A DNA stretch of 64,000 bases from positions 141,020 through 205,019 of the forward strand of contig CAZAYU010000002.1 in NCBI GenBank assembly GCA_964489445.1, written 5' to 3'. The stretch comes from an uncultured Planctomycetia bacterium (GTDB taxonomy: Bacteria > Omnitrophota > Gorgyraeia > Duberdicusellales > 4484-171). The position numbers were made by a program, and so were the translations under genes. This document shows, piece by piece, positions 16,036 to 29,324 of the stretch (the first letter of the stretch is position 1; every line of letters begins with the position of its first letter). The notes beneath the pieces are model-generated. The model was not told the origin of the DNA and made no database searches. It worked only from the letters and a program-made list of their open reading frames with translations.

Positions 16036-17589
16036 ATGTATTATATGGCAGAAAATAGTAGTAACCAATATATCTGTATTCATGGTCATTTTTATCAACC
16101 TCCACGAGAAAATCCTTGGGTAGGAGAAGTGGTGCGCCAAGATTCTGCATATCCTTTCCATGATTGGAATCAAAAAATAAACAAGGAATGTTACGCTGCT
16201 AACTCCAATACATCTCTTGTCAGTTCCGGGGGAAAAGTTACTAAGCATATTAATAATTATGCCCGGATTAGTTTTGATTTTGGGCCTACGCTTCTTTCTT
16301 GGTTGCAGATAAAACAGCCAGATACTTATCGTTTAATTATTCAAGCTGATCAAAGAAGTCAAAAAAACTTTAATGGGCACGGTTCAGCTATTGCTCAGTG
16401 CTATAACCATATGATTATGCCACTTGCTAACATTAAAGATAAACGTACTCAAGTTATCTGGGGGATAGCTGATTTTAAATATCGTTTTCAAAGGATGCCC
16501 GAAGGCATGTGGCTTCCGGAAACAGCAGTGGATATAGAAACATTAAGTGTATTGGCGGAGGAGGGAATAAAGTTTACGATTCTTGCACCGCACCAAGCAA
16601 AAGCTGTACGTGTAATTGGAAATAGTAGATGGAAAGATATTACGAAAAAGGGAATAAATTGTCGAGTTCCCTATCTTTGTCGTTTGCCCTCTGGCAAATC
16701 TTTGGCAATCTTTTTTTATAATGGGGCATTGTCTAGAGATGTTGCATTTGGGGATTTGTTAGATGATGGTGAACATTTTATGCAGGGTTTGCTTTCATTA
16801 TTTGTGAAAAGCCAGTCAACTAAACAGCTTGTTAGCATTGCAGTTGACGGCGAAACATTTGGGCACCATCATCGTTTTGGGAATATGGCCTTAGCTTATT
16901 GTTTAGATGATTTAGTAAAAAATAAACAAGCACTTCTTACAGTTTACGGAGAATATCTTGAAAAATTTCCACCAGTTGAAGAGGTTAAAATTATTGAGAA
17001 TTCTTCATGGAGCTGTTCGCACGGAATTAAACGGTGGCAATCAGATTGTGGTTGTAATTCTGGCACTTATCCGGGATGGAAACAAATGTGGCGTGTTGGT
17101 TTGAGAAAATCTATGGATTGGCTAAGAGATGAGTTAGCTGATATTTATGATGCTAATATGCCTAAAAGTGTTAAGGATCCCTGGAAAATGAGAAATGACT
17201 ATATTTTGATATTGTTAAACAAGTCTGATAATAGTCTAAATAAGTTTTTTAAAGATCATTTAAGACTAGATGTTCCAAAAATGGAAAAGGAAAGAATTCT
17301 AAAACTTTTAGAAATGCAACATAATACGATGTTGATGTATACTAGTTGTGGTTGGTTTTTTGATGATATCTCGGGGATTGAAGCAATCCAAGTTATTCAA
17401 TTTGCGATTAGGGCAATTCAACTAGCAGAAAAAATAAGTAGCCAACAAGTATTAAAACCATACCTGCAGTTGCTTAAGAAAGCTCCTAGCAATTCACCAG
17501 AGATAAAAAACGGACTTAATGTTTATGAGCAATTTGTCAAATTAGAAATGTTTAACTGTGCGAAAGCTAATGAATTATTTAATCTTTAA
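16036..17589 (+). CDS. Glycoside hydrolase family 57 protein (DUF3536-type group; amylase/glucanotransferase-like)
   Basis: It has the HGHFYQPPRENPW N-terminal GH57 motif and later WLPETAV and DGETFGHHH. The first in-frame ATG is at 16036; the ORF track used a TTG at 16024. Confidence 0.7.
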   Translation: MYYMAENSSNQYICIHGHFYQPPRENPWVGEVVRQDSAYPFHDWNQKINKECYAANSNTSLVSSGGKVTKHINNYARISFDFGPTLLSWLQIKQPDTYRLIIQADQRSQKNFNGHGSAIAQCYNHMIMPLANIKDKRTQVIWGIADFKYRFQRMPEGMWLPETAVDIETLSVLAEEGIKFTILAPHQAKAVRVIGNSRWKDITKKGINCRVPYLCRLPSGKSLAIFFYNGALSRDVAFGDLLDDGEHFMQGLLSLFVKSQSTKQLVSIAVDGETFGHHHRFGNMALAYCLDDLVKNKQALLTVYGEYLEKFPPVEEVKIIENSSWSCSHGIKRWQSDCGCNSGTYPGWKQMWRVGLRKSMDWLRDELADIYDANMPKSVKDPWKMRNDYILILLNKSDNSLNKFFKDHLRLDVPKMEKERILKLLEMQHNTMLMYTSCGWFFDDISGIEAIQVIQFAIRAIQLAEKISSQQVLKPYLQLLKKAPSNSPEIKNGLNVYEQFVKLEMFNCAKANELFNL

Positions 17590-17604
17590 AGAAGGAATAG
17601 CCTA

Positions 17605-19224
17605 ATGCAGTTTTCAGAAGGTAATTCTAGAGATTTTCACAAATCGTTTTCTAAAAATAGAAATTCTGTTTCTGGTTTAATTTCTGAACGAAAGATCAAA
17701 AAAATATCTAAAGGAATAAAAAAAAGAGCAAGCGGTGTGATTCTGCATATCACTTCTCTTCCTTCCGGATACGGTATTGGTGATTTTGGTCCTAAGGCTT
17801 TTCGTTTTGTTGATTTTTTGCGTGATTGCGGGCAAACGTATTGGCAGGTTTTGCCGTTGAATCCTACAGAGCAAATTTTTGGTAACTCTCCTTACAGTAG
17901 TGTTTCTGCCTATGCGGGCAATTTAAATTTAATTAGCCCGGAAATTCTTATTAATGATGGGTTTTTAAAAAAAGAGGAGTCTAGGCCCAAAGATAATTTT
18001 CCGGTAAGCTATTGCGATTATGCAAAGGTAATTCCGTTTAAGCATGAGTTATTAGAAAAAGCATACTTTAATTTTAAAAAAAATGGAAAACAAAAAAAAC
18101 AATTTCAGCAATTTTGCCTTGCCAACCATAAATGGCTCAGTGATTATGCATTATTTGTGCTGTTAAAAAAACGGTTCACAGGACAATCTTGGCATCTATG
18201 GCCGGCAAAATATAGAGATAGAAATGTGTCAGCTCTTAATAAATTGAAGAAAGATTGCGCTGAAGAGTTAGAGCGAAGTAAGTTTTTCCAATATTTATTT
18301 TTTAGTCAATGGTTTTCTTTAAAAAAATACTGTAATAAAAATAAAGTAAAATTTATTGGAGATATTCCGATTTATGTTAGTGGAGATAGTGTAGATGTCT
18401 GGGCTAATCCGGAGATTTTTAAACTGGATAAACAAAAAAAACCGCTTTTAGTTGCTGGTGTTCCTCCTGATTATTTTAGTAAGACCGGACAAAGATGGGG
18501 AAATCCAGTGTATTCTTGGCAAAAATTGAAAAAGCAGGGGTTTAAGTGGTGGCTTGATCGGTTAAGGCATAATTTTAAGTTGTTTGATGTATTGAGAATA
18601 GATCATTTTCGTGGATTTGTTGCTTTTTGGGGGATACCTGCCTCTGAAGAAACGGCAATAAATGGTAAATGGTTTAAGGCTCCAGCAGAAGAGTTTTTTT
18701 CTGCAGTAGTCAATGAATTTCCCGGACAAACAATTATTGCTGAAGATTTAGGGCATATTACTGATGACGTCAAACAGATCATAAAAGAGTTTGAATTTCC
18801 GGGGATGAAGATACTAATCTTTGCTTTTGGAGAGAATCTCAGTACTCATCCGTATCTACCACATAATTATATCAATAACTGCATAGCATATACTGGAACA
18901 CACGACAACAACACTGTTAGAGGATGGTTCGAGAATGAAGCAGGTGAATTAGAAAAAGAAAATATTATCAAATATATTGGTAAGAGAATAGCTGCTAGAC
19001 GAATTAATTGGGAGCTTATAATATTGGCAATGAATTCCCGCGCGAATACGGCAATTTTTCCTTTGCAGGATATTTTAGGTTTAGGGCAAAAAGCACGGAT
19101 GAATTTTCCTTCAAAGCCGCAAGGTAATTGGTCTTGGCGGGTTTTAAACAGTCAATTGTCTTCAACAGTATGCAAAGAGCTGCTAAAATATACACAAGAA
19201 GGAAAAAGATTCTCAAATAAATAA
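17605..19224 (+). CDS. malQ: 4-alpha-glucanotransferase (amylomaltase, GH77)
   Basis: RASGVILHITSLPSGYGIGDFG, the GDIPIYV...DVWA region, and a WGNPVYSW-type motif were seen. Confidence 0.85.
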   Translation: MQFSEGNSRDFHKSFSKNRNSVSGLISERKIKKISKGIKKRASGVILHITSLPSGYGIGDFGPKAFRFVDFLRDCGQTYWQVLPLNPTEQIFGNSPYSSVSAYAGNLNLISPEILINDGFLKKEESRPKDNFPVSYCDYAKVIPFKHELLEKAYFNFKKNGKQKKQFQQFCLANHKWLSDYALFVLLKKRFTGQSWHLWPAKYRDRNVSALNKLKKDCAEELERSKFFQYLFFSQWFSLKKYCNKNKVKFIGDIPIYVSGDSVDVWANPEIFKLDKQKKPLLVAGVPPDYFSKTGQRWGNPVYSWQKLKKQGFKWWLDRLRHNFKLFDVLRIDHFRGFVAFWGIPASEETAINGKWFKAPAEEFFSAVVNEFPGQTIIAEDLGHITDDVKQIIKEFEFPGMKILIFAFGENLSTHPYLPHNYINNCIAYTGTHDNNTVRGWFENEAGELEKENIIKYIGKRIAARRINWELIILAMNSRANTAIFPLQDILGLGQKARMNFPSKPQGNWSWRVLNSQLSSTVCKELLKYTQEGKRFSNK

Positions 19225-19264
19225 TAGAATTTGAGCATCAGCATTTTTTAAATTAAAGTTAAAC

Positions 19265-19981
19265 ATGCCTAACAGTAAAGAACATCATTTTCAATTTAAG
19301 GAAGTTGAATTGGACGGTGAATTGAAAAATAGTTTTCAATTTTGCCGGAAGATATTAATGGCCCATGAAGAAGAGAAAAAAAGAATATCTAGGGATTTGC
19401 ATGACGAAAGTGGACAGATTGTTATTGGCTTAAGTACGACGTTTAATGTTATTGAGAAGGAAATACGTTCTGGCAATACAGGAAAAGCGTTGCAATTGAT
19501 CGATGATACTAGGGGGTTAATAAAAACTTTATCAGTTCGAATGAAATCATTGGCATTAATTTTAAGGCCTCCGGCATTAGATGTTTTAGGGTTGTCTGCT
19601 GTATTGAGAGAATATTTTTGGCAGTGCAGTAAAAATAATGAAATCAAGATCGAATTTAACGAAAATTTAAAAGATAGGAAAATTGAACCTGGGTTAGAAA
19701 TAACTATTTACCGTATAGTTCAAGAAGCGTTAAACAATGTCTTAAAGCATTCAAAAGCATCATTAGTTATGGTTAGCCTACTTATCAAGAAAAACAAAAT
19801 TCAATTAATAATTGAAGATAACGGACAGGGTTTTGATTTTAAAAATCTTAAAAATGGTATACATACTGAAAAGTTAGGATTGAGTGGAATTAATGAAAGA
19901 GTATCGGCGTTTAATGGTAAATTTTTTATTGATTCAGTTTTAAAAAAAGGGACAACATTAATAATAAGTCTTCCGCTTTAG
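19265..19981 (+). CDS. Cytoplasmic sensor histidine kinase, HisKA_3 family, no TM or sensor domain
   Basis: The H-box reads EEEKKRISRDLHDESGQ, followed by HATPase_c motifs (NNVLKHS, EDNGQGF, GLSGINER). It is 238 aa. Confidence 0.75.
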   Translation: MPNSKEHHFQFKEVELDGELKNSFQFCRKILMAHEEEKKRISRDLHDESGQIVIGLSTTFNVIEKEIRSGNTGKALQLIDDTRGLIKTLSVRMKSLALILRPPALDVLGLSAVLREYFWQCSKNNEIKIEFNENLKDRKIEPGLEITIYRIVQEALNNVLKHSKASLVMVSLLIKKNKIQLIIEDNGQGFDFKNLKNGIHTEKLGLSGINERVSAFNGKFFIDSVLKKGTTLIISLPL

Positions 19982-19991
19982 TGAGGTATCT

Positions 19992-20648
19992 ATGGCAATA
20001 AATGTGATGTTGGTTGATGACCACCCGATTGTACTTCAGGGAATAGAATCAGTGTTGTCTCTAGAAGAAGATATTAAAGTAGTGGCTAAGGCGGCTAATG
20101 GAAGAGAAGCGGTTTCTTTGGTGGTAAAGCATAATCTTGATGTTGTGGTGATGGATATTTCACTTCCCGGATTAAATGGTTTGGAAGCTACCCAAAAAAT
20201 ATTAAAACAGAATAAGCATATTAAAGTGTTGATTCTAAGCATGCATGAAAATAGAGTATTTATTGAAAAAGCACTTAGCTATGGAGCTAAAGGGTATGTT
20301 CTAAAAGAGTCGGCATCTGAAGAGATTATTCAGGCAATTCGAGAAGTTTATAATGGTAGGTATTTTTTAAGTGCAAAAATATCTTCTTTTGTGATTAATG
20401 ATTTCATCGTGCAGAAACATAAAACCTTAAAACTAAGAAGTATTTCTATTTTAACTAATAGAGAAAGAGAAATCTTACAACTCATTGTCGAAGGAATGAG
20501 TAATAAAAAAATAGCGCAGAGCTTAAATATTTCCTTAAAAACTGCTTTGGTCCATCGTAATAATATTATGCATAAACTAGATATGCATAATGAGGCGCAA
20601 CTAGTAAGATTTGCCCTAGCTGAAGGTATTTCCGGACCCTTACCTTAG
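19992..20648 (+). CDS. NarL/LuxR-family response regulator (REC + HTH_LuxR)
   Basis: VMLVDDHPIV, the D54-region VVVMDISLPG, and C-terminal REREILQLIVEGMSNKKIAQSLNISLKTALVHRNNIMHKL were seen. Confidence 0.85.
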   Translation: MAINVMLVDDHPIVLQGIESVLSLEEDIKVVAKAANGREAVSLVVKHNLDVVVMDISLPGLNGLEATQKILKQNKHIKVLILSMHENRVFIEKALSYGAKGYVLKESASEEIIQAIREVYNGRYFLSAKISSFVINDFIVQKHKTLKLRSISILTNREREILQLIVEGMSNKKIAQSLNISLKTALVHRNNIMHKLDMHNEAQLVRFALAEGISGPLP

Positions 20649-20738
20649 AAACAATTATTGTAATTGGTTGTTCTACAGTAGTTTATCCGCATATTTATTA
20701 TATTTTCTGATATTTAAAGGAAATAAAAAAAATTTCAA

Positions 20739-20775
20739 AAATAAGCAGTTCTGCTTATTTACATTTTTTATTTTC
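20739..20775 (+). terminator. Perfect 10-bp inverted repeat (AAATAAGCAG-TT-CTGCTTATTT) followed by a T-run; terminator for the two-component operon and/or an operator
   Basis: The palindrome was read directly; downstream is ACATTTTTTATTTTCT. Confidence 0.45.
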
Positions 20776-20829
20776 TAGTATATATTACTTCTTCAATAAA
20801 TTATAATTATAAATCAAAGGAGGTGGGAG

Positions 20830-21150
20830 ATGATAATGAGAGGGCAAAAAAATAAGAAAAAGGTTGTGAAAAAAATAAAAAAGCCAGTGCTTAAAAAAGT
20901 TAAGTTTGTGTTTGATTCTTTCGAGGCAAACCAAGTTGCAGTTGCCGGTGATTTTAATGATTGGGACGCAGGTAGCTTACCGATGAGGAAAGACAGAAAG
21001 AAAATATGGGAAAAGGGAATCACATTGAAACCTGGACGCTATGAATATAAATTTGTTGTGGATGGTAATTGGACAAGTGATCCGAAAAATGACAATCGGA
21101 CTGTAAATAGCATGGGATCAGAAAATTCAGTTATTGAAGTAAAGAAATAA
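20830..21150 (+). CDS. Stand-alone glycogen-binding CBM48 (AMPK-beta GBD-like) protein with Lys-rich N-terminal tail
   Basis: VAGDFNDWDAGSLPMRKD...YEYKFVVDGNWTSDPKND...NSVIEVKK matches the AMPK-beta GBD consensus. The N-terminus KNKKKVVKKIKKPVLKKVK is strongly basic. A GGAGGTG RBS is present. Confidence 0.75.
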   Translation: MIMRGQKNKKKVVKKIKKPVLKKVKFVFDSFEANQVAVAGDFNDWDAGSLPMRKDRKKIWEKGITLKPGRYEYKFVVDGNWTSDPKNDNRTVNSMGSENSVIEVKK

Positions 21151-21169: not shown

Positions 21170-22330
21170 ATGCGGATTGCATTTTTTTCTTGGGAGTCTG
21201 TCCATTCGGTAGCTGTAGGAGGAGTAGCGTTGCATGTTACGGAATTAGCATGTGCACTAGAACGAAAAGGGCATGAAGTCCATATTTTTACGCGATTAGG
21301 CAATTCTTCGCAGCCTTGGTGTGAAAAAATTCACGGAGTCTACTATCATCGCTGCTCGTTTGCCTCTAATTATGATTTTGTTGAAGAAGTAAATAATATG
21401 TGTCGGGCTTTTGTTAGCGTGTTTTTAGATACCGAAAATCACATAGGTCGTTTTGATATTATACACGCACATGATTGGCTAGCTTCTAACGCGGTAGTTT
21501 GGATTAAAGAGGCAAGGAACCATAAATCTGTTTTAACAGTGCATTCTACTGAATACGGAAGGTGCGGAAATAATTTTTTCGGTGGTAATTCGGCAAGAGT
21601 TCGCGATCATGAACGTCATGGAACATTTTGTGCTGATAAAGTCATTACAGTATCTAATGCTCTAAAAAATGAAATAATGTGGATGTATAATACTCCGGAA
21701 TGGAAAACTTTTTCGATTTATAATGGGGTAAATTATTGTAATTATGATGGATGGATAGACTCAGATAGTGTACGAAATTATTATGATATTTCTCCTATGG
21801 ATCCTTTGGTCTTGTTTGTGGGAAGAATGGTATACCAAAAAGGTCCGGATCTATTAGTAGAAGCTATACCGCATATCTTGAAATACCACAATAATGCCAA
21901 GTTTGTATTCGTTGGAGATGGTGAAATGCGCTGGGGCGTTGAAGAACAGGCAAGGCATTTAGGTGTCAGCCATGCTACCCGGTTTTTAGGCCATCATAAT
22001 GGCTGGAAGTTAGTCGATCTTTATAAAGCAGCAGATGTAGTTTGTGTGCCGAGTCGGAATGAACCGTTCGGAATTGTTATTTTAGAAGCTTGGAGCGCGG
22101 GAAAACCGGTAGTTGCTAGCATGAATGGAGGTCCAGGGGAAATTATTTGGCACGAAATTAACGGGCTTAAAATTTGGCCTAATTCTGATTCAATTGCTTG
22201 GGGACTTGGAACTCTTTTTGAAGATTTTGAACATGCTCGTTGGATGGGGAAAAACGGAAGAATTGCCGTAGAAACCGCATTTTCCTGGGACGCGATAGCC
22301 GATCAAACTTTGGCAGCTTATGTAAGCTAA
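21170..22330 (+). CDS. GT4/GT1-group glycosyltransferase, putative alpha-glucan (glycogen) synthase
   Basis: The N-terminus reads MRIAFFSWE...VGGVA, and the C-terminal E-x7-E region reads VPSRNEPFGIVILEAWSAGKPVV. The call is supported by its position inside the glycogen cluster. Confidence 0.55.
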   Translation: MRIAFFSWESVHSVAVGGVALHVTELACALERKGHEVHIFTRLGNSSQPWCEKIHGVYYHRCSFASNYDFVEEVNNMCRAFVSVFLDTENHIGRFDIIHAHDWLASNAVVWIKEARNHKSVLTVHSTEYGRCGNNFFGGNSARVRDHERHGTFCADKVITVSNALKNEIMWMYNTPEWKTFSIYNGVNYCNYDGWIDSDSVRNYYDISPMDPLVLFVGRMVYQKGPDLLVEAIPHILKYHNNAKFVFVGDGEMRWGVEEQARHLGVSHATRFLGHHNGWKLVDLYKAADVVCVPSRNEPFGIVILEAWSAGKPVVASMNGGPGEIIWHEINGLKIWPNSDSIAWGLGTLFEDFEHARWMGKNGRIAVETAFSWDAIADQTLAAYVS

Positions 22331-22356: not shown

Positions 22357-23673
22357 ATGGCTCAAAAGAGAAAAGTGATAAAAAGAGTTTACGAAAAAGG
22401 ACGGGAGATGACTCTTTCAGCGAAGAAAAGAGTATTAACAAAAAACCAGGTTGTTTCCAAAACAAAAACAGCCAAGAAGATTTCTCCGAAAAATATAAAG
22501 CCAAGGGCACCGATTAAAGTTGGTGCAGGGCAAGTAAGTGACAATCAGCATCTTCTTAATACCGGGGTTGACCAGTATTCGGAAAAGAGTTTTTTCCCAG
22601 AAAATGATTATCTTCCTTCTAACTATGGAATAACTCGTTGTGTTCTTTTGGTAAGAGATCCTTATTGGGTTTATGCTTATTGGGAAGTTGAAGAAGGACA
22701 TATTGATAAAATTAAAAGAAATATTTCTGAAAGTCAGGTTGCTACTGCAAAGTTTGTATTGCGTATTTATGATGTTAGTTTGGTTGACTTTAATGGGATA
22801 AATGCCAATTTTTTCTTCGATATTGAACCGAATATATTCACTAACAGTTGGCATATTAAGCTTTTTCATGATGGAGGTTCATTCGTTGGTGAGATAGGGC
22901 TAAGAACTTCTGATGGGAGATTCTTTGCGCTAAGCCGGTCTAATTATGTGCAGACTCCTCGGGTTAGTTATTCATCTCGATCTGAGCAAATTTGGATGGA
23001 AGTTACTGATGATGACCATTCTGCGCCTTTTGTTCTTCCCAAAAAAGTTAATACTGTCTTAAACGATAAAAAAAAATCTGTTCAAAATATTAAATCTTAC
23101 GCAAACCCACCTAAACGGAAAAGACTCTATATTACTGAAGAAGAGATAAGAAGATATTATTCTCGGTTGAACCCTTTGTTAAAGGATATTATTGAATCTC
23201 GGCTTGAATCTTTCTATACTAATAAAACTAAAAAATATTCTGTAGTTATTGAAGGAATATCTGAACAAGATCGTCAGGCGATGCTTTCTCGATTGCCCAA
23301 GGGTTATTTTGTTAAAGAAGTACTATTAGGCGCATCAGAAAACTTAGTTGTGCTTGGTGAAGGAGCCAGCGAAAAACAAATTTCTAGTGATTCAACATCT
23401 AGCAACTTTGTTGTGGAAAAAATTAAATCCCGGAACTTTTTCTTTGAGCTAAATACGGAATTAATTGTTTATGGACGAACAGAACCGGACGCTGAAGTTT
23501 GGTTAGCTGACAAACGTGTTCCTCTACGTAGTGATGGGACTTTTAGCCTAAGATTTGCCTTGCCGGATGGAAATATTCCTCTAGAGTTTAAAGCGATATC
23601 CAACGATAAGCTTGATTGTAAAAGAATAAATACCTATGTAGATCGTCACACCAACCATGAGCAGAAAAGATAA
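22357..23673 (+). CDS. DUF4912-family protein (unknown function, recurrently linked to GH57 glycogen loci)
   Basis: The DPYWVYAYWEV motif is present. It has a basic N-terminus and is 438 aa from the first ATG after the upstream stop. Confidence 0.55.
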   Translation: MAQKRKVIKRVYEKGREMTLSAKKRVLTKNQVVSKTKTAKKISPKNIKPRAPIKVGAGQVSDNQHLLNTGVDQYSEKSFFPENDYLPSNYGITRCVLLVRDPYWVYAYWEVEEGHIDKIKRNISESQVATAKFVLRIYDVSLVDFNGINANFFFDIEPNIFTNSWHIKLFHDGGSFVGEIGLRTSDGRFFALSRSNYVQTPRVSYSSRSEQIWMEVTDDDHSAPFVLPKKVNTVLNDKKKSVQNIKSYANPPKRKRLYITEEEIRRYYSRLNPLLKDIIESRLESFYTNKTKKYSVVIEGISEQDRQAMLSRLPKGYFVKEVLLGASENLVVLGEGASEKQISSDSTSSNFVVEKIKSRNFFFELNTELIVYGRTEPDAEVWLADKRVPLRSDGTFSLRFALPDGNIPLEFKAISNDKLDCKRINTYVDRHTNHEQKR

Positions 23674-25351
23674 TAATCACAAAGGGTATCTGTGTTTAAT
23701 GCTTCATGCTCATCTTCCGTTTGTTCGCCATCCGGAAAATGAGTATTATTTAGAAGAAAACTGGCTATATGAAGCTATTACTGAAACATATATTCCTTTA
23801 ATCCAGGCCTTTGAGCGTTTGGTTAACGACGGAGTGGATTTTCGCATTACAATGTCGGTGACTCCCACGTTAGCTTCTATGCTTCAGGATTCTCTTTTGC
23901 AGGATAGATATCTTCGGCACATTAACAAGCTGTTAGAGTTATCCGACAAGGAAGTAGAGAGAACTGGGTATCATACAAGTTTTCACGGTTTGGCTTTAAT
24001 GTACAGAAGAAAATTTACCGAAGCTAAGAAATTGTTTGTTGACCAATACGGAAAAAACTTAATTTCTGCATTTAAAAAATTTCAAGATATGGGTTATTTG
24101 GAAATAATTGGTTCTTGCGCGACCCATGGTTTTTTACCGTTATTAAATATAAACCCTTCCGATGTTCGAGGGCAAATACATATTGGGGTGGAGAATTATA
24201 CTAAAACATTTGGTCGTCCTCCTAGAGGTTTTTGGCTTCCGGAGTGTGGATATTATCCCGGCGTTGACAAAGTGTTAAAAGAAGCAGGAATAAGATATTT
24301 CTTTGTAGACTCTCACAGCATCATTAATGCTGACCCAATGCCTCGGTATAGTGTTCATGCACCTCTTTATTGTCCTTCAGGTGTAGCTGCATTTGGTCGT
24401 GACTGGGAGTCGTCAAAACAAGTTTGGAGTTCTAAAGAAGGTTATCCTGGTGACGCTGACTATCGGGAATACTACAAAGATATTGGATATGAGCTAGATT
24501 TTGACTATATAAAAGATTACATTCACCCTGACGGAATCAGAGTTAATACTGGCATGAAATACTGGCGGATAACCGGTGAAACAGGTTATAAAGAGCCGTA
24601 TGTTCCTGATTGGGCCAGAGAAAAAGCAGCAATGCATGCAGGAAATTTTATGTTTAACCGGGGGAAGCAGATAGAACATATAGCTTATCATATGGACAGG
24701 AAACCAATAGTTGTTGCCCCTTATGATGCAGAGCTTTTTGGTCATTGGTGGTATGAAGGTCCGATGTGGATAGAGTTTCTAGCTCGAAAAATATTTTATG
24801 ATCAAGAAATAGTTAAGATGGTTACCCCTAGTGAATATCTTCGTGAATATCCGGTCAATCAAGTAGCGCTGCCTTCAGCTTCTAGCTGGGGGCATAAAGG
24901 ATATAATGAATTTTGGGTAGAGGGAAGTAATGACTGGATTTATCGACATATTCATGAAGCAGGGGTACGAATGAAAGAAATGGCTGATAAATTTTCTTAT
25001 TTGTTTGGCAAGTCCTACAAAACAAGCATTTATCGCCGGGCTTTAAATCAAGCTGCTAGAGAGTTAGTGCTGGTTCAGTCGAGTGATTGGCCATTTATCA
25101 TGAGAACCGGAACCATGGTTCCTTATGCCCATCGCCGGGCAAAAACTCACATAAATAGATTTTTACGCATTTATAAACAGGTAATGAATCAATGTGTTGA
25201 TGAAGCGTGGTTGACAGAGGTAGAAAAAAAAGATAATATATTTTTAAATATAGATTGTGGAAAATATTATATTTCCGAAAGTGCTACACCTAAGTGTTCG
25301 CTTATTAAAAAAAAGAAAAGGAGTGGAAAGAAAATAAAATGCAGAACATAA
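23657..25351 (+). CDS. GH57-type 1,4-alpha-glucan branching enzyme
   Basis: LHAHLPFVRHPE...ENWLYEAITETYIPL, WLPECGY and ELFGHWW were seen (GH57 branching-enzyme signatures). It is 564 aa. Confidence 0.75.
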   Translation: MSRKDNNHKGYLCLMLHAHLPFVRHPENEYYLEENWLYEAITETYIPLIQAFERLVNDGVDFRITMSVTPTLASMLQDSLLQDRYLRHINKLLELSDKEVERTGYHTSFHGLALMYRRKFTEAKKLFVDQYGKNLISAFKKFQDMGYLEIIGSCATHGFLPLLNINPSDVRGQIHIGVENYTKTFGRPPRGFWLPECGYYPGVDKVLKEAGIRYFFVDSHSIINADPMPRYSVHAPLYCPSGVAAFGRDWESSKQVWSSKEGYPGDADYREYYKDIGYELDFDYIKDYIHPDGIRVNTGMKYWRITGETGYKEPYVPDWAREKAAMHAGNFMFNRGKQIEHIAYHMDRKPIVVAPYDAELFGHWWYEGPMWIEFLARKIFYDQEIVKMVTPSEYLREYPVNQVALPSASSWGHKGYNEFWVEGSNDWIYRHIHEAGVRMKEMADKFSYLFGKSYKTSIYRRALNQAARELVLVQSSDWPFIMRTGTMVPYAHRRAKTHINRFLRIYKQVMNQCVDEAWLTEVEKKDNIFLNIDCGKYYISESATPKCSLIKKKKRSGKKIKCRT

Positions 25352-26778
25352 TTGATGACCTACCGGTAATATGTAGTAAAGAAAAAACCAGTAGCAAGCT
25401 TGGCTTGTTTAAAAAAGACATCTATTCTTCTGTTTCTGATATTTATTTTGATAGGGTTCGTTCTTCTTTCGGAATTGCATTGCATATGCACCAGCCGACA
25501 ATTCTTTCTAATCCGGATGACTTACAAAATTCGTTTTTTATTAGTAATATTCAAAGCATGTTAGAGCATCAGGGTGTTGGTGATAATCATAATGCGCCTG
25601 TATTTATGCAGTGCTATCGGCGGATATCGCAATTTATTCGGGACCTTGTGAATACAGGATGTAGTCCTCGGGTTATGCTTGATTATTCAGGAAATTTACT
25701 TTGGGGGCTAAGCCAAGTAGAAAATGGTGAGGTGCTAGAAGATCTAAAACTGGTTACTAAAAATAAAAAATATTATCATAATGTTGAGTGGCTGGGAACA
25801 ATGTGGTCACACGCTGTGGTTCCTTCAACGCCTGTGCCGGATATTGCGCTTCATATAAAGGCATGGCAGAATCAATTTTCAGCTATTTTTGGAAAAGAGG
25901 CTTTATCTAGGGTTAAAGGTTTTTCACCTCCAGAAATGCATTTACCAATTCATCCGGATATTTGCTATCATTATGTAAAAACATTAAAAGAATGCGGGTA
26001 TCAATGGTTAATGGTTCAGGAGCATACAATTGAAAACTTGGATGGTTCTTCAATACAACGGCCGCATTTTCCACATAAGCTTGTTGCTAAAAATTCTCTA
26101 GGACAAACCGAAGAGATAAGCATTTTAATTAAAACGCAAGGGTCAGATACAAAATTAGTTGCTCAGATGCAACCTTATTACGAAGCCCAATCTCTCCAGA
26201 GGCAGGATTATCAAGGTAAAAACGTACCGCCGTTTGTTTTGCAAATAAGCGATGGAGAAAACGGGGGCGTGATGATGAATGAATTTCCTTCCAAATATTT
26301 AAGTGTAATGAAAGAGGTAGGCTCTAACGGGGTGTTTGCGCTTAATGGTTCGGAATATTTAGAATTTATTAAAAAAAGCGGTCTTAAAGAAAAAGATTTT
26401 ATTCCGGTTCAATCTGTATCTCAAAGTAAAATTTGGGAATTCATTGGCAACTATGGTCCAAAAGCAGTTGACCAGGCAATTGATGAAGCTCGAAAGAAAT
26501 ACGGAGGATTTAATTTGGATAAAGGTTCTTGGACTAGCGACAAAGATTGGGTTAAGGGCTATGAGGATGTTTTAGATCCTATAAATAAGTTAAGTGTGGA
26601 ATTTCATCGGTATTTTGATGGTAAAAAAAATAATCAATCTTCTTCAGCATATCAAGAAGCACTGCTCTATTTATTGCTTTCTCAGACAAGTTGCTTTCGT
26701 TATTGGGGATCTGGCTTGTGGACTGAATATGCGAAAGAAATTTGTCGTAGAGGATTTGCCATACTTAAAAAATCATAA
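25339..26778 (+). CDS. Glycoside hydrolase family 57 protein (third paralog)
   Basis: It has the ALHMHQPT GH57 region-I motif and is 479 aa. Confidence 0.5.
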   Translation: MQNIIDDLPVICSKEKTSSKLGLFKKDIYSSVSDIYFDRVRSSFGIALHMHQPTILSNPDDLQNSFFISNIQSMLEHQGVGDNHNAPVFMQCYRRISQFIRDLVNTGCSPRVMLDYSGNLLWGLSQVENGEVLEDLKLVTKNKKYYHNVEWLGTMWSHAVVPSTPVPDIALHIKAWQNQFSAIFGKEALSRVKGFSPPEMHLPIHPDICYHYVKTLKECGYQWLMVQEHTIENLDGSSIQRPHFPHKLVAKNSLGQTEEISILIKTQGSDTKLVAQMQPYYEAQSLQRQDYQGKNVPPFVLQISDGENGGVMMNEFPSKYLSVMKEVGSNGVFALNGSEYLEFIKKSGLKEKDFIPVQSVSQSKIWEFIGNYGPKAVDQAIDEARKKYGGFNLDKGSWTSDKDWVKGYEDVLDPINKLSVEFHRYFDGKKNNQSSSAYQEALLYLLLSQTSCFRYWGSGLWTEYAKEICRRGFAILKKS

Positions 26779-26846
26779 GTTTTTACAATAGCAGTACGTG
26801 TGTAAGGACAGTATTTATTGATTATTATACCTAACACTTTAACACA

Positions 26847-29324
26847 ATGAAGCAATATAAAAATGCTCCAAAATACAGAATTTCCCGAGTAGGAATGGAC
26901 AAAAAAAGTATCCGAAAGTCGTTCAAGAATAATCTTTTGTGTACTTTGGCCAAAGATAAATTTACAGCGACATATCGTGATAATTTTATGGCTTTAGCGA
27001 TTGCTATCAGAGATCGGCTGGCAAAACGTTGGATTGCGACTCAGCAGAGGTATCATCGAAAAAATAAAAAAAGAGTATACTACCTCTCAATGGAGTTTTT
27101 AATTGGCCGCCTTTTAGGGAATAATCTCCTAAATTTAGGAATTTGGGATGAGGCTGAGGAAGTTTTAAATGAGCTAGGGCTTGATTTTGAAGAAGTACGG
27201 AAGCAGGAAACAGATGCTGGGCTAGGAAATGGCGGGTTAGGAAGGTTGGCGGCTTGTTTTCTAGATTCTCTGGCAACCTTAAATATACCTGCACATGGGT
27301 ATGGTATTCGATATGATTACGGAATGTTTCATCAGAAAATTAAAGATGGACGTCAAATTGAACTTCCGGATGAATGGCTTAAGTTTGGATATCCTTGGGA
27401 GTTTGAGAGGCCGGAGTATAACGTAAGGATACAATTTTATGGCAACATTGAATTCTCTGATTCTGAAAACGGAGGAAAAAATATTAAGTGGGTAAATACT
27501 GATGATGTTTTGGCGATTCCTTATGATGTTCCTGTGTCCGGGTACAAAAATAATATTGTAAATACGCTTCGCCTTTGGTCAGCAAGGGGCACAGAAGAGT
27601 TTGATTTTAACTATTTTAATCATGGTGATTACGGAAAAGCGGTAGAAGATAAGATTTTTTCTGAAAATATTTCAAAAATACTATATCCTGACGACAGCAT
27701 GAGCAGGGGCAAGGAGCTAAGGCTAAAACAAGAGTATTTTTTTACTGCAGCTTCCTTAGCGGATATTATTCGAAGATTTAAAGAAGAAAATTCTGATTTA
27801 AGGAATTTACCAAAAAAAGCGGTCATCCAACTTAATGATACTCATCCGGCTTTGGCGATTCCGGAGTTAATGAGAATATTAATTGATCAGGAGAATTTGA
27901 CTTGGGATGTTGCATGGAAGATATGCTCCAAGACTTTTGCGTATACCAACCATACAATTATGCCTGAAGCTCTAGAAAGTTGGTCGGTAATATTGTTTGA
28001 AAAAGTTCTTCCTCGCCATTTACAGATAATTTATGAGATTAATTTTAAATTTCTCAAATATGTGGCAAAGCAATTTCCCCAAGACGAAAGTAAATTAGGA
28101 AGAGTATCGATTATTGAAGAGGGAGAAGTGAAAAATGTATGCATGGCTCATTTATGTATAGTAGGTAGTTATTCTGTAAACGGAGTTTCAGAAATTCATA
28201 CCAGTTTGCTAAAGACTAGGGTATTCAAAGATTTTTATGATATTTTCCCCAATAAATTTAATAATAAAACTAATGGAGTAACTCACAGAAGGTGGCTTTT
28301 GAAATCAAACCATGGTTTATCTGCTTTGATTACAGATACTATCGGAGACAGTTGGATTACCAATCTTAATCATTTAAAAAAGCTACTTCCTTACAAAGAT
28401 GACTGTAATTTTCAGAAAGAATGGTCTAAAGTAAAGAAAGCTAACAAGAAGATTTTAGCTGAACACATCAAAAATACTCAAGGAATTATTGTGAATCCGG
28501 AATCATTATTTGATGTACATATTAAGCGAATTCATGAGTATAAACGGCAGGTGTTGTTTGGGCTGTATATTATTTCTGAATATCTAAGTGCAACCCGAAA
28601 AATAAAAAAAGATATTCTGCCCCGAACTTTTTTATTGGCTGGAAAAGCAGCTCCAGGGTATTTTATGGCTAAGCTAATTATTAAATTTATTAATAATATT
28701 GCGAGAACAATTAACAATGATAAAAGTGTTAAGAATTTATTTAAGGTAGTCTTTTTAGAAAATTATCGCGTTTCCTTAGCAGAAAAAATATTTCCGGCTA
28801 GTGATTTATCAGAGCAAATATCTACTGCTGGAACAGAGGCATCTGGTACTGGATGTATGAAATTTATGCTTAATGGTGCCTTGACGATTGGTACTCTAGA
28901 TGGAGCGAATATTGAAATGGCCCAGGAATGCGGTGCAGAAAACATATTTATGTTTGGGCTAAGCGCAGAAAAGATTTCACAATTAAAGAATGAAGGATAC
29001 AATCCTAACCAATATATTGAGAAATATCCGTTGTTGAAGGAAATTATTAATCTAATTCGTAGCGATTTCTTTTCTCCTAGCGAACGTGGAATTTTTGAAC
29101 CTATTATTCAGTCGTTAATAACGCAGGATCCGTTTTTTGTCTGTGCTGACTTTAGTGCTTATCTTGAAGCGCAGAATAAAGCCACAAAATCATATTGTGC
29201 TAAGCCTGGCTGGATTTCCAAGTCAATAGTTAATACTGCTACCTCTGGAAAGTTTTCTAGTGATCGGACTATTCAAGAATATGCAACGCAAATTTGGCAT
29301 GCACCTTTCAAGCCGAGCGAGTAA
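26847..29324 (+). CDS. glgP: Glycogen/alpha-glucan phosphorylase (GT35)
   Basis: EFLIGRLLGNN, the LGNGGLGRLAACFLDS GT35 signature, and the PLP site EASGTGCMKFMLNGALTIGTLDGANIEM were seen. It is 825 aa. Confidence 0.9.
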   Translation: MKQYKNAPKYRISRVGMDKKSIRKSFKNNLLCTLAKDKFTATYRDNFMALAIAIRDRLAKRWIATQQRYHRKNKKRVYYLSMEFLIGRLLGNNLLNLGIWDEAEEVLNELGLDFEEVRKQETDAGLGNGGLGRLAACFLDSLATLNIPAHGYGIRYDYGMFHQKIKDGRQIELPDEWLKFGYPWEFERPEYNVRIQFYGNIEFSDSENGGKNIKWVNTDDVLAIPYDVPVSGYKNNIVNTLRLWSARGTEEFDFNYFNHGDYGKAVEDKIFSENISKILYPDDSMSRGKELRLKQEYFFTAASLADIIRRFKEENSDLRNLPKKAVIQLNDTHPALAIPELMRILIDQENLTWDVAWKICSKTFAYTNHTIMPEALESWSVILFEKVLPRHLQIIYEINFKFLKYVAKQFPQDESKLGRVSIIEEGEVKNVCMAHLCIVGSYSVNGVSEIHTSLLKTRVFKDFYDIFPNKFNNKTNGVTHRRWLLKSNHGLSALITDTIGDSWITNLNHLKKLLPYKDDCNFQKEWSKVKKANKKILAEHIKNTQGIIVNPESLFDVHIKRIHEYKRQVLFGLYIISEYLSATRKIKKDILPRTFLLAGKAAPGYFMAKLIIKFINNIARTINNDKSVKNLFKVVFLENYRVSLAEKIFPASDLSEQISTAGTEASGTGCMKFMLNGALTIGTLDGANIEMAQECGAENIFMFGLSAEKISQLKNEGYNPNQYIEKYPLLKEIINLIRSDFFSPSERGIFEPIIQSLITQDPFFVCADFSAYLEAQNKATKSYCAKPGWISKSIVNTATSGKFSSDRTIQEYATQIWHAPFKPSE

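What the first reader, a model, noticed from the sequence alone, without database searches (positions are those of the whole stretch)
16036..29324. Alpha-glucan island built entirely from non-classical families: three GH57 paralogs, GH77, GT35, GT4 and DUF4912, with no GH13 GlgB, GT5 GlgA or GlgC
The window holds three distinct GH57 proteins: an HGHFYQPPRE type, an LHAHLPFV branching-enzyme type and an HMHQP type. It also has MalQ, GlgP, a GT4 synthase-like enzyme and a DUF4912 protein with the DPYWVYAYWE motif. The classical glgBXCAP set is missing from this stretch. DUF4912 is uncharacterised but recurrently sits next to GH57 branching enzymes. The nucleotide-sugar donor for the GT4 enzyme is unresolved. 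A ManC-like nucleotidyltransferase lies 0.6 kb past the island at 30890.
Basis: partly seen in the sequence, partly recalled or inferred. Interest (0 to 1): 0.55.

Follow-up and report, generated by a model that had tools for sequence, protein, structure and literature searches.

The report
Omnitrophota glycogen gene cluster with accessory proteins
This is a real 15-kb glycogen-type sugar-storage gene cluster typical of the uncultured phylum Omnitrophota; its enzymes are mostly of recognisable kinds, but it also encodes uncharacterised helper proteins, including a ParA-type positioning ATPase fused to a glycogen-binding module.

Summary
Window 16045-29324 encodes GH57+DUF3536, GH77 MalQ, a GT4, a DUF4912 protein, a GH57 branching enzyme, a third very divergent GH57-like protein and GT35 GlgP. 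It also missed a divergent operon at 14213-15936 (membrane protein plus ParA/MinD ATPase fused to CBM48).

The organism is an Omnitrophota bacterium from Ace Lake, probably Ca. Aceula lacicola. Across 80 related loci the order CBM48-GT4-DUF4912-GBE-GH57-like is conserved, and DUF4912 sits directly upstream of the branching enzyme in 75 of 76.

No GH13, GT5 or GlgC lies within about 79 kb. However, the published annotation of that species lists GlgC, GlgB and GlgA on other contigs. An unrelated contig places GH57-DUF4912-GBE in one run with GT5 GlgA and GlgC. So this is probably not a stand-alone replacement pathway, and GT35 and GH77 are classical families anyway. The ManC-like gene is 1.6 kb away, not 0.6, and is not syntenic.

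Verdict: a new variant of a known kind. The most novel lead is the unreported ParA-CBM48 fusion, which may position glycogen granules.

The parts
14213..15271 (-). ParA/MinD-family ATPase (deviant Walker A KGGCGKTT) fused to a C-terminal CBM48/AMPK-beta-type glycogen-binding module, 352 aa
   Evidence: AAA_31 E 5e-43, CbiA, and AMPK1_CBM E 4e-14 at residues 278-351. The C-terminal domain aligns to AMPK beta1/beta2 CBM structures at E 3e-9, with FNNW, YKF, QW and IN conserved. At least 120 homologous clusters exist; every one that carries a source name is Omnitrophota, and all carry PF16561.
15268..15936 (-). 222-aa partner of the ParA-CBM48 gene. It has a conserved N-terminal peptide (D..R[LI]...FF[ST]), a Lys-rich stretch, one transmembrane helix and a beta-rich C-terminal domain. 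Its stop overlaps the ParA start by 4 nt.
   Evidence: No Pfam or NCBIfam hit. A homolog of 219-236 aa directly precedes ParA-CBM48 in 5 other genomes. Alignments A3 and A5 show 27-37% identity.
16045..17589 (+). GH57 enzyme with a DUF3536 C-terminal domain (PoGH57 type). Candidate catalytic residues are E159 and D268. An alternative TTG start lies at 16024.
   Evidence: PF03065 plus PF12055. Motifs HGHFY and GETFGHH match the CSR-I and CSR-IV of the characterised Pontibacter PoGH57 (PMC11206854). hhalign to the GBE family gives 95.7% probability and aligns E159 with E195 and D268 with D357.
17605..19224 (+). GH77 4-alpha-glucanotransferase (MalQ)
   Evidence: PF02446 599 bits; NF011080 693 bits, above its cutoff of 477.
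19265..19981 (+). Soluble histidine kinase of 238 aa, with HisKA_3 and HATPase_c only and no sensor or membrane domain
   Evidence: It is conserved between MalQ and the CBM48 gene in the 12 closest loci and in L090.
20007..20648 (+). NarL/FixJ-type response regulator (receiver domain plus GerE helix-turn-helix)
   Evidence: Response_reg E 1e-29 and GerE E 2e-20; gene call.
20830..21150 (+). Stand-alone CBM48 protein of 106 aa with a strongly basic N-terminal tail (MIMRGQKNKKKVVKKIKKPVLKK)
   Evidence: AMPK1_CBM E 5e-16 and CBM_48 E 7e-10. A homolog is found in 41 of the 80 loci, in most cases just upstream of the GT4. Basic tails recur in homologs.
21170..22330 (+). GT4 retaining glycosyltransferase of 386 aa, a candidate alpha-1,4-glucosyltransferase with unknown donor and acceptor
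   Evidence: Glycos_transf_1, Glyco_transf_4 and Glyco_transf_5 (79 bits). The best curated family is glgA_Coryne/GlgM TIGR02149 at 153 bits, below its cutoff of 302. PDB hits MshA, SPS, archaeal GlgA and GlgM are all weak. Identity across Omnitrophota is 62-78%.
22357..23673 (+). DUF4912 protein of 438 aa: a basic disordered N-terminus with a conserved KxIKRVYEKGRE motif, an FN3-like DUF4912 beta-sandwich (about residues 90-200), a linker, and a small C-terminal beta domain (about 368-430). Its stop overlaps the GBE start by 17 nt.
   Evidence: PF16258. AF2 model with pLDDT >90 in both beta domains. Foldseek top hits are FN3 domains. The N-terminal region has a median net charge of +11 in 73 homologs.
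23657..25351 (+). GH57 glycogen branching enzyme of 564 aa, with E195 as nucleophile and D357 as acid/base candidates
   Evidence: PF03065 E 1e-43 plus BE_C E 5e-34. NCBIfam GBE models score 347 and 322 bits. Both GBE fingerprints, HAHLP and ELFGHW, are present.
25339..26778 (+). Divergent GH57-like enzyme of 479 aa (HMHQP type). H49-P53, E199 and D305-G-E307 are invariant. Its start overlaps the GBE stop by 13 nt.
   Evidence: No Pfam or PDB sequence hit. The AF2 model has pLDDT 85 and pTM 0.91. Foldseek top hits are GH57 structures 1ufa, 5wu7, 3n8t, 4cmr and 2b5d at E 1e-9 to 5e-7. BLASTP gives E 4e-13 to a Pfam-positive GH57 next to DUF4912-GBE in Nitrospinota. More than 8000 homologs exist, and the top 120 are 62-82% identical to it.
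26847..29324 (+). GT35 glycogen/maltodextrin phosphorylase (GlgP), 825 aa
   Evidence: PF00343 1094 bits; TIGR02093 1198 bits.

Best explanation
This is the intracellular branched alpha-glucan (glycogen-type) metabolism cluster of an Omnitrophota bacterium. It is vertically conserved in the phylum, not a mobile island.

Shown:
- A conserved five-gene core in fixed order: basic-tailed CBM48 protein, GT4, DUF4912, GH57 branching enzyme, divergent GH57-like enzyme.
- Upstream, a remodelling and regulation block: PoGH57-type GH57, MalQ, a sensor-less kinase and a NarL-type regulator.
- Downstream, GlgP.
- On the other strand, a membrane protein plus a ParA/MinD ATPase carrying a glycogen-binding CBM48.

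Inferred mechanism:
- The GT4 extends alpha-1,4 chains from an NDP-glucose. ADP-glucose from a GlgC encoded elsewhere is the most likely donor.
- The GH57 GBE adds alpha-1,6 branches.
- DUF4912 is a non-catalytic beta-sandwich accessory of the GBE, probably translationally coupled to it. It recruits or tethers the enzyme or its product.
- The two other GH57 proteins trim or disproportionate chains.
- GlgP and MalQ mobilise the polymer.
- The CBM48 proteins bind the granule.
- The cluster works alongside, not instead of, classical GlgC/GlgA/GlgB genes reported elsewhere in the probable source genome.
For: - The GBE fingerprints and the PoGH57 type come from PMC11206854.
- Synteny over 80 genome loci: DUF4912 in 76, GBE in 75, GT4 in 55, GH57-like in 51, CBM48 in 41, kinase and regulator in 12 each. 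The order is the same throughout.
- L090 reproduces the whole arrangement, including the divergent ParA-CBM48 operon, at 55% ParA identity.
- DUF4912-GBE occurs as a bare two-gene unit among housekeeping genes in L073. It also occurs as GH57-DUF4912-GBE in Nitrospinota.
- One contig, L097, encodes on one strand and in this order a partial non-orthologous GT4, GH77, GH57, DUF4912, GBE, GT5 GlgA, GlgC and GlgP. This places DUF4912 inside a complete glycogen gene set.
- None of the cluster enzymes has a signal peptide on inspection of the translated N-termini. The next gene, a beta-propeller, does.
- GC content in the cluster is 0.33-0.38, against about 0.35 for the window.
- Ace Lake Omnitrophota were already inferred to make glycogen (PMC8542988).
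Against: - No activity was measured for any protein here.
- The GT4 falls below every curated family cutoff, and its donor and acceptor are unknown.
- The L097 gene run contains both a GT4 (26% identical over the C-terminal half, not orthologous) and a GT5 GlgA. A GT4 next to GH57 genes therefore need not be the polymerising synthase.
- Assignment of the window to Ca. Aceula lacicola is inferred from the metagenome ID and phylum only. The GH13 and GT5 nature of its listed GlgB and GlgA is inferred from gene length only.
- The DUF4912 fold match is to generic FN3 domains, not to starch-binding modules.
Confidence: 0.7

Rival explanations
1. The non-catalytic proteins form a glycogen-granule organising system. 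The ParA/MinD ATPase binds granules directly through its fused CBM48. The N-terminal peptide of its membrane-anchored partner engages or cycles it. The Lys-rich tails of the CBM48 protein and of DUF4912 tether granules or enzymes to a polyanionic surface such as the nucleoid. Together they control granule number, position and inheritance. This extends the best explanation rather than contradicting it.
For: - The fusion is conserved in at least 120 protein clusters; every one that carries a source name is Omnitrophota.
- The Walker A signature lysine is intact, and the AMPK-beta carbohydrate-contact motifs are conserved.
- A conserved partner is always upstream.
- The operon lies within 10 kb of DUF4912, GBE or GH57 genes in the window, L090, L089, L093 and L094. 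ParA-CBM48 homologs also lie close to DUF4912/GBE in L074, L076 and L081. This holds even though other neighbours differ.
- The basic tails are conserved in charge but not in sequence.
- Rho_N or histone-H1-like domains occur on 6 of 98 diverse DUF4912 proteins.
- A 2025 review of bacterial organelle positioning lists no glycogen system.
Against: - There are no data on DNA, membrane or glycogen binding.
- The partner is membrane-anchored and unlike McdB or ParB.
- Some of the neighbourhood conservation (PCMT, phosphomutase, LpxA in L088, L089, L093, L094) looks like inherited synteny rather than functional linkage.
- L088 keeps the operon next to only a remnant of a GH57 gene.
- Basic tails are common in small proteins.
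Confidence: 0.3
2. The GT4 is a GlgM-like maltose-1-phosphate (or other primer) synthase. The tightly co-occurring divergent GH57-like enzyme is the transferase that polymerises its product. This would be a GH57 analogue of the GlgM/GlgE route.
For: - GT4 and the GH57-like gene are present together in 36 loci and absent together in 8. Only 1 locus has GT4 alone and none has the GH57-like gene alone (Fisher p 4e-8, not corrected for phylogeny).
- The best curated family for the GT4 is the GlgM family TIGR02149.
- GT4 'GlgA' proteins that accompany GlgE are GlgM enzymes (PMC11046441).
- No GH13_3 GlgE is present in the window.
- GH57, like GH13, uses a retaining mechanism (established knowledge).
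Against: - The GT4 scores half the TIGR02149 cutoff. By phmmer it is closer to MshA than to GlgM structure 6tvp.
- No GH57 enzyme is known to use a sugar phosphate donor.
- The 8 loci lacking both genes form a single GBE clade, so the co-occurrence may reflect one or two evolutionary events.
- HMHQP-type GH57 genes also accompany DUF4912-GBE without any adjacent GT4 (L096).
Confidence: 0.1
3. The cluster is a catabolic maltodextrin or exogenous-glycogen utilisation locus. MalQ, GlgP and GH57 hydrolases are the working parts, and GT4 and GBE play minor roles.
For: MalQ plus a phosphorylase is the classical maltodextrin route. Two of the three GH57 proteins are of types with hydrolytic or disproportionating activity. 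The Ace Lake Omnitrophota are described as sugar fermenters.
Against: - No transporter, binding protein or secreted amylase lies in or beside the cluster.
- The most conserved genes are the GT4, GBE and DUF4912, not MalQ or GlgP. MalQ occurs in 5 and GlgP in 4 of the 80 loci.
- A branching enzyme and a glycosyltransferase are anabolic.
Confidence: 0.1
4. GT4 plus the GH57 GBE make a specialised small alpha-glucan, not bulk glycogen. A model is the mycobacterial methylglucose lipopolysaccharide made with Rv3032 (GT4) and Rv3031 (GH57).
For: GT4 and a GH57 branching-type enzyme are adjacent, as in the Rv3030-Rv3037c locus (my knowledge of that locus; not tested here).
Against: No methyltransferase or acyltransferase lies in the cluster. 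Three glycogen-binding CBM48-type or beta-sandwich proteins and a glycogen phosphorylase accompany it. In L097 the same GH57-DUF4912-GBE module sits with GlgA, GlgC and GlgP.
Confidence: 0.07

Closest known systems
Classical bacterial glycogen operon glgBXCAP (E. coli type)
   Same: It makes and degrades an alpha-1,4/alpha-1,6 glucan. It uses a GT35 GlgP, and a GH77 MalQ does the disproportionation.
   Different: The cluster and 79 kb around it contain no GlgC, no GT5 GlgA and no GH13 GlgB or GlgX. The synthase candidate is a GT4 and branching is by GH57. The cluster adds DUF4912, CBM48 proteins, a two-component system and ParA-CBM48.
Contig L097 glycogen gene run (Logan SRR29093000; source organism not identified): (partial non-orthologous GT4)-GH77-GH57-DUF4912-GBE-GlgA(GT5)-GlgC-GlgP, all on one strand
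   Same: It has the same GH57-DUF4912-GBE module, flanked by MalQ and GlgP.
   Different: It carries the classical GT5 GlgA and GlgC in the same run. It lacks the CBM48 protein, the two-component system, ParA-CBM48 and an orthologous GT4.
PoGH57 of Pontibacter sp. SGAir0037 (DUF3536-containing GH57; PMC11206854)
   Same: It shares HGHFY in CSR-I and ET[FY]GHH in CSR-IV with the 16045-17589 protein, and it carries a DUF3536 domain.
   Different: PoGH57 sits in a GlgE/TreS-type locus of a Bacteroidota. Its measured activity was low (chain trimming and 4-alpha-glucanotransfer). The identity to the window protein was not measured.
Mycobacterial Rv3032 (GT4) / Rv3031 (GH57) methylglucose-lipopolysaccharide locus, and GlgM (GT4)
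   Same: A GT4 alpha-glucosyltransferase sits next to a GH57 branching-type enzyme. GlgM is the best-scoring curated family for the GT4.
   Different: There are no methyl- or acyltransferases here. The GT4 is below the GlgM family cutoff. No GlgE is present.
ParA/MinD cargo-positioning systems (McdAB for carboxysomes) and nucleoid tethers PhaM, PhaF and AlgP (PMC13052382)
   Same: A deviant-Walker-A ATPase is encoded with a small adjacent partner gene. Lys-rich tails sit on the granule-associated proteins.
   Different: The cargo-binding module is fused directly to the ATPase. The partner is a membrane protein with no similarity to McdB or ParB. The cargo would be a polysaccharide granule, for which no such system is described.
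CBM48 scaffold proteins: AMPK beta subunit, plant PTST and SEX4/LSF1
   Same: The CBM48/AMPK1_CBM fold and the conserved carbohydrate-contact motifs match. The module is used non-catalytically.
   Different: Here it is bacterial. It stands alone with a basic tail or is fused to an ATPase. There is no kinase, phosphatase or coiled-coil partner.

Membership tests
GH57 glycogen branching enzyme (protein 23657-25351) | GH57 catalytic domain plus C-terminal BE_C domain | tested here: met
   PF03065 E 1e-43 and PF09210 E 5e-34.
GH57 glycogen branching enzyme (protein 23657-25351) | GBE fingerprints HxHLP (x = A/S/T) in CSR-I and ELF(Y)GHW in CSR-IV (Xiang et al. 2021, as quoted in PMC11206854) | tested here: met
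   HAHLP at residues 17-21 and ELFGHW at 359-364 (criteria).
GH57 glycogen branching enzyme (protein 23657-25351) | NCBIfam equivalog cutoffs for the Thermococcales and Thermus branching enzymes | tested here: not met
   347 and 322 bits against cutoffs of 1000 and 920. These cutoffs define narrow lineage-specific equivalogs, so missing them does not argue against membership of the broader GBE group.
GH57 glycogen branching enzyme (protein 23657-25351) | Alpha-1,6 branching activity | not testable with these tools
   This needs an enzyme assay.
GH57, DUF3536 / PoGH57 type (protein 16045-17589) | GH57 domain plus DUF3536, with HGHFY in CSR-I and ET[FY]GHH in CSR-IV | tested here: met
   The catalytic Glu and Asp align with those of the GBE at 95.7% hhalign probability.
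GH57 (protein 25339-26778) | Significant match to Pfam PF03065 | tested here: not met
   No hit at E<=0.001 or at E<=10. About half of its close homologs carry a precomputed PF03065 hit, and NCBI names them GH57.
GH57 (protein 25339-26778) | GH57-type (beta/alpha)7 fold | tested here: met
   The five best Foldseek PDB hits are GH57 enzymes at E 1e-9 to 2e-8 with TM about 0.5. GH38 and CE4 structures follow. The model has pLDDT 85 and pTM 0.91.
GH57 (protein 25339-26778) | Conserved sequence regions with the nucleophile Glu (CSR-3) and acid/base Asp (CSR-4) | tested here: inconclusive
   HMHQP, E199 (GFSPPEM) and D305 (SDGENGG) are invariant in 49 homologs. They align with HMHQP, GFWPPEM and SDGENGG of a Pfam-positive GH57. 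The direct profile alignment to the GBE is weak (E 0.018).
Classical GlgC-GlgA-GlgB pathway | GlgC (NTP_transferase plus LbH_GLGC), GT5 GlgA and GH13_9 GlgB encoded in the cluster | tested here: not met
   None is present in window coordinates -6.5 kb to +72.3 kb. The only NTP-transferase is ManC-like (TIGR01479 209 bits, below its cutoff of 373). Genes annotated GlgC, GlgB and GlgA are reported elsewhere in the probable source species. I could not verify those by sequence.
GlgM / GlgE pathway | GT4 reaching the TIGR02149 (glgA_Coryne/GlgM) cutoff | tested here: not met
   153.5 bits against a cutoff of 302.4. GlgM structure 6tvp matches at only 63 bits.
GlgM / GlgE pathway | GH13_3 GlgE maltosyltransferase present | tested here: not met
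   No GH13 domain lies in the region surveyed. Table S5 lists GlgE only for Ca. Zapsychrus.
ParA/MinD positioning ATPases (protein 14213-15271) | Deviant Walker A KGGxxGK[ST] with the signature lysine, and a ParA/MinD-family domain | tested here: met
   The sequence reads NQKGGCGKTT. AAA_31 E 5e-43 and CbiA E 1e-17. ParA_partition, MinD and BcsQ models match below their cutoffs.
ParA/MinD positioning ATPases (protein 14213-15271) | A cognate partner or adaptor gene adjacent | tested here: met
   A conserved 219-236-aa protein is always directly upstream. It is unrelated to ParB, McdB or MinE at the Pfam level and has a transmembrane helix.
ParA/MinD positioning ATPases (protein 14213-15271) | ATP-dependent binding to nucleoid or membrane and cargo movement | not testable with these tools
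   This needs biochemistry and imaging.
CBM48 / AMPK-beta glycogen-binding module (20830-21150 and the C-terminus of 14213-15271) | Pfam match above the gathering score and conserved carbohydrate-contact residues | tested here: met
   PF16561 scores 59 and 52.9 bits against a cutoff of 26.8. The alignment to 4y0g, 2f15 and 1z0m keeps FNNW, YKF, QW and IN. That these are the contact residues is from my memory of the AMPK beta1 work.
Mycobacterial MGLP locus | Methyltransferase and acyltransferase genes beside the GT4 and GH57 genes | tested here: not met
   None is present in the cluster.

The most novel reading that the evidence does not exclude
Omnitrophota encode a dedicated glycogen-granule organising apparatus. 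It consists of a ParA/MinD ATPase that grips the granule through a fused CBM48, a membrane-anchored partner whose conserved N-terminal peptide controls the ATPase, and Lys-tailed CBM48 and DUF4912 proteins that tether the granule and its branching enzyme. This would be the first ATP-driven positioning system for a polysaccharide storage granule.
Probability: 0.25. Interest if true: 0.75.

Novelty: new variant of a known kind. Interest (0 to 1): 0.52.

Why it matters
- Glycogen is the most widespread bacterial carbon store, yet nothing is known about how bacteria control granule number, position or inheritance. The roles of GT4 enzymes and of most GH57 subfamilies in glucan metabolism are flagged as open in the 2024 Chem Rev review (PMC11046441).
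- This cluster supplies concrete, testable candidates:
  - a protein family (DUF4912; 3344 representative clusters at 50% identity, with no functional study found in the paper library) that is almost always the upstream neighbour of a GH57 branching enzyme;
  - a highly conserved, unclassified GH57-like enzyme;
  - a phylum-wide ParA-CBM48 fusion.
- About 1% of a genome of roughly 1.5 Mb is devoted to this locus. Storage-glucan handling therefore appears important for these small-celled, uncultured bacteria.
- If it turns out to be only a glycogen operon with lineage-specific accessory genes, it still corrects the view that GH57/GT4 clusters replace the GlgC-GlgA pathway.

Tried and rejected
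- **PDB sequence and profile searches.** Searches for the 479-aa protein, for DUF4912 and for GH57-DUF3536 found nothing useful.
- **Profile-profile alignment.** The alignment of the 479-aa family to the GBE family was only marginal (E 0.018). GH57 membership had to be argued from fold and from an intermediate sequence.
- **Coordinate coincidence.** Table S5 lists PfkA at 170-1141 on a contig, and a window ORF runs 110-1141. This suggested the window might be the start of a published contig with GlgA 8 kb beyond its end. I rejected this: the ORF is the C-terminal part of citramalate synthase, and no glycosyltransferase lies within 10 kb downstream.
- **Tying the window to Table S5.** I searched the table for other window genes and found none listed.
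- **Promoter and terminator scan.** Counts were at or below shuffled expectation, so operon boundaries rest on gene spacing only.
- **Rfam.** Only five tRNAs were found, and nothing regulatory in the cluster.
- **ManC-like transferase.** It is not conserved with the cluster. It is separated from the cluster by a secreted propeller gene.
- **L097 GT4.** It is not an ortholog of the window GT4, at 26% identity over the C-terminal half.
- **Horizontal transfer.** Not supported by composition or by the phylum-wide synteny.

Full report
**What is there**

ORF listing and Pfam/NCBIfam scans, together with gene calls on the parent contig, give twelve genes.

On the minus strand:
- A 222-aa protein with one transmembrane helix (15268-15936).
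- A 352-aa ParA/MinD-type ATPase with a C-terminal CBM48/AMPK1_CBM module (14213-15271). Its start overlaps the stop of the 222-aa gene by 4 nt.

On the plus strand, starting 109 bp away:
- GH57+DUF3536 (16045-17589).
- GH77 MalQ (17605-19224).
- A 238-aa HisKA_3 kinase with no sensor domain (19265-19981).
- A NarL-type response regulator (20007-20648).
- After a 182-bp gap, a 106-aa CBM48 protein (20830-21150).
- A GT4 (21170-22330).
- A 438-aa DUF4912 protein (22357-23673).
- A GH57 branching enzyme (23657-25351), overlapping DUF4912 by 17 nt.
- A 479-aa protein (25339-26778), overlapping the branching enzyme by 13 nt.
- GT35 GlgP (26847-29324).

The next gene (29410-30900) encodes a beta-propeller with a clear signal peptide.

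**Source**

Homologs of the DUF4912 protein, the 479-aa protein and the ParA fusion are almost all from Candidatus Omnitrophota. The exact proteins occur on a 300,815-bp contig of JGI metagenome 3300023244. That metagenome is Ace Lake #93.

The only Omnitrophota MAG reported from it is 3300023244_9, Ca. Aceula lacicola, with a size of about 1.5 Mb (PMC8542988 Table S1). A 69-82% identical second copy of the cluster proteins (P0002, P0122, P0241) fits the sister species, whose overall amino-acid identity to A. lacicola is about 68%. The species assignment is an inference, not a sequence match to a listed gene.

**Typing the three GH57 proteins**

- **Branching enzyme.** It carries both published GBE fingerprints, HAHLP and ELFGHW. 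It also has BE_C and the Glu195/Asp357 pair.
- **16045-17589 protein.** It has HGHFY and GETFGHH plus DUF3536. This is the type of Pontibacter PoGH57, a weakly active chain-trimming 4-alpha-glucanotransferase-like enzyme. Its profile aligns to the GBE family at 95.7% probability, with the catalytic residues in register.
- **479-aa protein.** It is not recognised by Pfam-A even at E<=10, nor by PDB sequence or profile searches.
  - Its family is very large and highly conserved. More than 8000 hits were scored, and the listed top 120 are 62-82% identical to it.
  - A confident AlphaFold model (pLDDT 85, pTM 0.91) finds GH57 structures as its five best PDB matches. GH38 and CE4 structures follow.
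  - HMHQP, Glu199 and Asp305-Gly-Glu are invariant.
  - BLASTP aligns it end to end (E 4e-13) with a Pfam-positive GH57 from a Nitrospinota contig. That protein shares HMHQP, GFxPPEM and SDGENGG.
  - I therefore accept it as a divergent GH57-like enzyme of unknown specificity.

**Conservation**

A pattern scan of one genome per species returned 80 loci, 76 of which had a DUF4912 hit of adequate coverage. tblastn with the window proteins gave these counts:

| Gene | Loci with a hit |
|---|---|
| GBE | 75 |
| GT4 | 55 |
| 479-aa GH57-like | 51 |
| CBM48 | 41 |
| Kinase and regulator | 12 each |
| MalQ | 5 |
| GlgP | 4 |
| GH57-DUF3536 | 3 |

The order is always the same. Among 45 loci with enough flank, GT4 and the GH57-like gene are both present in 36 and both absent in 8. 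Only 1 locus has GT4 alone, and none has the GH57-like gene alone. The eight loci lacking both belong to one GBE clade, so this may represent few evolutionary events.

In that clade DUF4912-GBE stands alone among housekeeping genes (L073). The pair therefore appears to be the basic unit.

The pairing extends beyond the phylum:
- A Nitrospinota MAG has GH57-DUF4912-GBE.
- An unclassified contig encodes, all on one strand, a partial GT4, GH77, GH57, DUF4912, GBE, GT5 GlgA, GlgC and GlgP.

The second case is the strongest evidence that DUF4912 is a glycogen-metabolism accessory. It also shows that the GH57 module is used together with ADP-glucose-based synthesis.

**DUF4912**

The paper library holds no functional study of it. 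The model shows two confident beta domains, at residues 90-200 and 368-430, separated by disordered segments. The first domain matches FN3 domains.

The N-terminal 80 residues vary in sequence but are consistently basic. The median net charge is +11 in 73 homologs, after a conserved KxIKRVYEKGRE motif.

The domain family has 3344 representative clusters at 50% identity. Among 98 diverse members, 13 have a Glucodextran_B-like domain, 5 have Rho_N and 1 has a histone-H1-like region. Six, including some of the multi-repeat proteins, carry PBP-like domains.

I infer a non-catalytic adaptor of the branching enzyme. Whether it binds glucan, protein or nucleic acid is open.

**The ParA-CBM48 operon**

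- The ATPase has the deviant Walker A motif with the signature lysine.
- Its C-terminal 90 residues align to AMPK beta carbohydrate-binding modules at E 3e-9, with the aromatic and Lys/Asn motifs conserved.
- All 120 listed homologs carry the same fusion. Those with a source name are annotated only as 'AAA family ATPase', 'ParA family protein' or 'chromosome partitioning protein'.
- In five other genomes a homolog of the 222-aa membrane protein directly precedes it. That protein has an invariant N-terminal D..R...FF motif, a Lys-rich stretch, a transmembrane helix and a beta-rich domain.
- L090 reproduces the window's entire divergent arrangement.
- In L089, L093 and L094 the operon lies 1-10 kb from DUF4912-GBE and two further GH57 genes.
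- In L074, L076 and L081 it lies just upstream of a CBM48 gene and DUF4912-GBE.
- L088, a 1.27-Mb genome, keeps only a GH57 remnant nearby.
- No paper in the library describes such a fusion or any glycogen-positioning system.

**The 'missing classical genes' claim**

No GH13, GT5 or GlgC domain occurs from about 6.5 kb before the window to 8.3 kb after it.

However, Table S5 of PMC8542988 lists three genes for Ca. Aceula lacicola on three other contigs: GlgC (1221 bp), GlgB (1926 bp) and GlgA (1365 bp). Their lengths differ from every gene in this cluster. They fit GlgC, a GH13 GlgB and a GT5 GlgA, but I could not fetch the sequences.

The ManC-like transferase (330 aa; TIGR01479 209 bits, below its cutoff) is not syntenic with the core.

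**Interpretation**

The cluster is best read as the Omnitrophota version of a glycogen synthesis, remodelling and mobilisation locus that operates with ADP-glucose made elsewhere. The role of the GT4 is the weakest link:
- It is below all curated cutoffs.
- It is only distantly similar to MshA, SPS, archaeal GlgA and GlgM.
- GT4 genes nested among GH57 genes are an acknowledged open question.

Rival readings are scored in the structured fields.

Composition and phylum-wide synteny argue against a mobile island. Promoter and terminator scans and Rfam added nothing.

Noticed in passing
window 35853-36464 and 36458-37225 (+): Two adjacent ORFs of 203 and 255 aa overlap by 7 nt. Both hit the sodium:solute symporter family PF00474. 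This looks like one transporter gene split by a frameshift, either a pseudogene or an assembly error.
   Followed up: no
window 30917-31909 and 31906-32838 (+): The ManC-like nucleotidyltransferase lacks the isomerase/cupin half. Its stop overlaps the start of a radical SAM gene. The best NCBIfam hit for that gene is prokaryotic viperin, at 55 bits against a cutoff of 180, so it is not a member. A YggS gene follows. A nucleotide-sugar enzyme paired with a radical SAM enzyme may form a small modification unit unrelated to the glucan cluster.
   Followed up: partly
window 29410-30900 (+): A 496-aa protein has a signal peptide, BNR/Reg_prop-like beta-propeller repeats and a charged, helical-looking C-terminus. 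It is wedged between GlgP and the ManC-like gene and is absent from related clusters.
   Followed up: partly
window 43659-44417; 47083-47439; 58027-58371 (+): The window holds a diadenylate cyclase (DAC domain) and two small stand-alone PilZ-domain proteins. Cyclic-dinucleotide signalling genes are therefore dense in this small genome.
   Followed up: no
window 50698-51102 and 51109-51417 (+): A PhageMetallopep-domain protein is followed by a zinc-ribbon protein. This may be a remnant of phage or defence-related genes.
   Followed up: no
window 38157-39446 (-): This is the only minus-strand gene in a long plus-strand run. It encodes a B12-binding radical SAM protein with weak similarity to PhpK-type P-methyltransferases, at 60 bits against a cutoff of 600.
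   Followed up: no
window 13293-13365, 46489-46561, 46658-46740, 47495-47565, 52702-52777 (+): Rfam finds five tRNA genes. One lies about 850 bp beyond the 3' end of the ParA-CBM48 gene, with a 158-184-aa ORF between them.
   Followed up: no
L089 12017-16045; L093 15433-19292; L094 15351-19438: In another Omnitrophota lineage DUF4912-GBE is followed by a 510-541-aa GH57, a 680-693-aa GH57 4-alpha-glucanotransferase (AmyA-type middle and C-terminal domains) and a small DUF2934 protein. No GT4 lies in the roughly 10 kb examined on either side of the ParA-CBM48 gene. This is a second cluster architecture.
   Followed up: partly
L090 11155-13040: Next to the ParA-CBM48 gene in the closest syntenic genome lie a TreT-type GT4 (trehalose synthase family PF21269) and a DUF5752 protein. 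Trehalose and glycogen genes are neighbours there but not in the window.
   Followed up: no
proteins P0365 (1471 aa), P0421 (1541 aa), P0471, P0476, P0486: Some DUF4912 family members are very long, with up to 10 DUF4912 repeats. Six of the 98 diverse members scanned, which include these long proteins, carry PBP_like_2 (phosphate-binding-protein-like) domains. This architecture is hard to reconcile with a simple GBE-accessory role.
   Followed up: no
PMC8542988 Table S5, Ca. Tantalella remota contig 042834: The published table lists a 1010-aa 'GH57 + glycogen synthase' fusion directly followed by a 528-aa GlgB and a GlgC. Such a GH57-glycosyltransferase fusion would support functional coupling of the two enzyme types in this phylum.
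   Followed up: no
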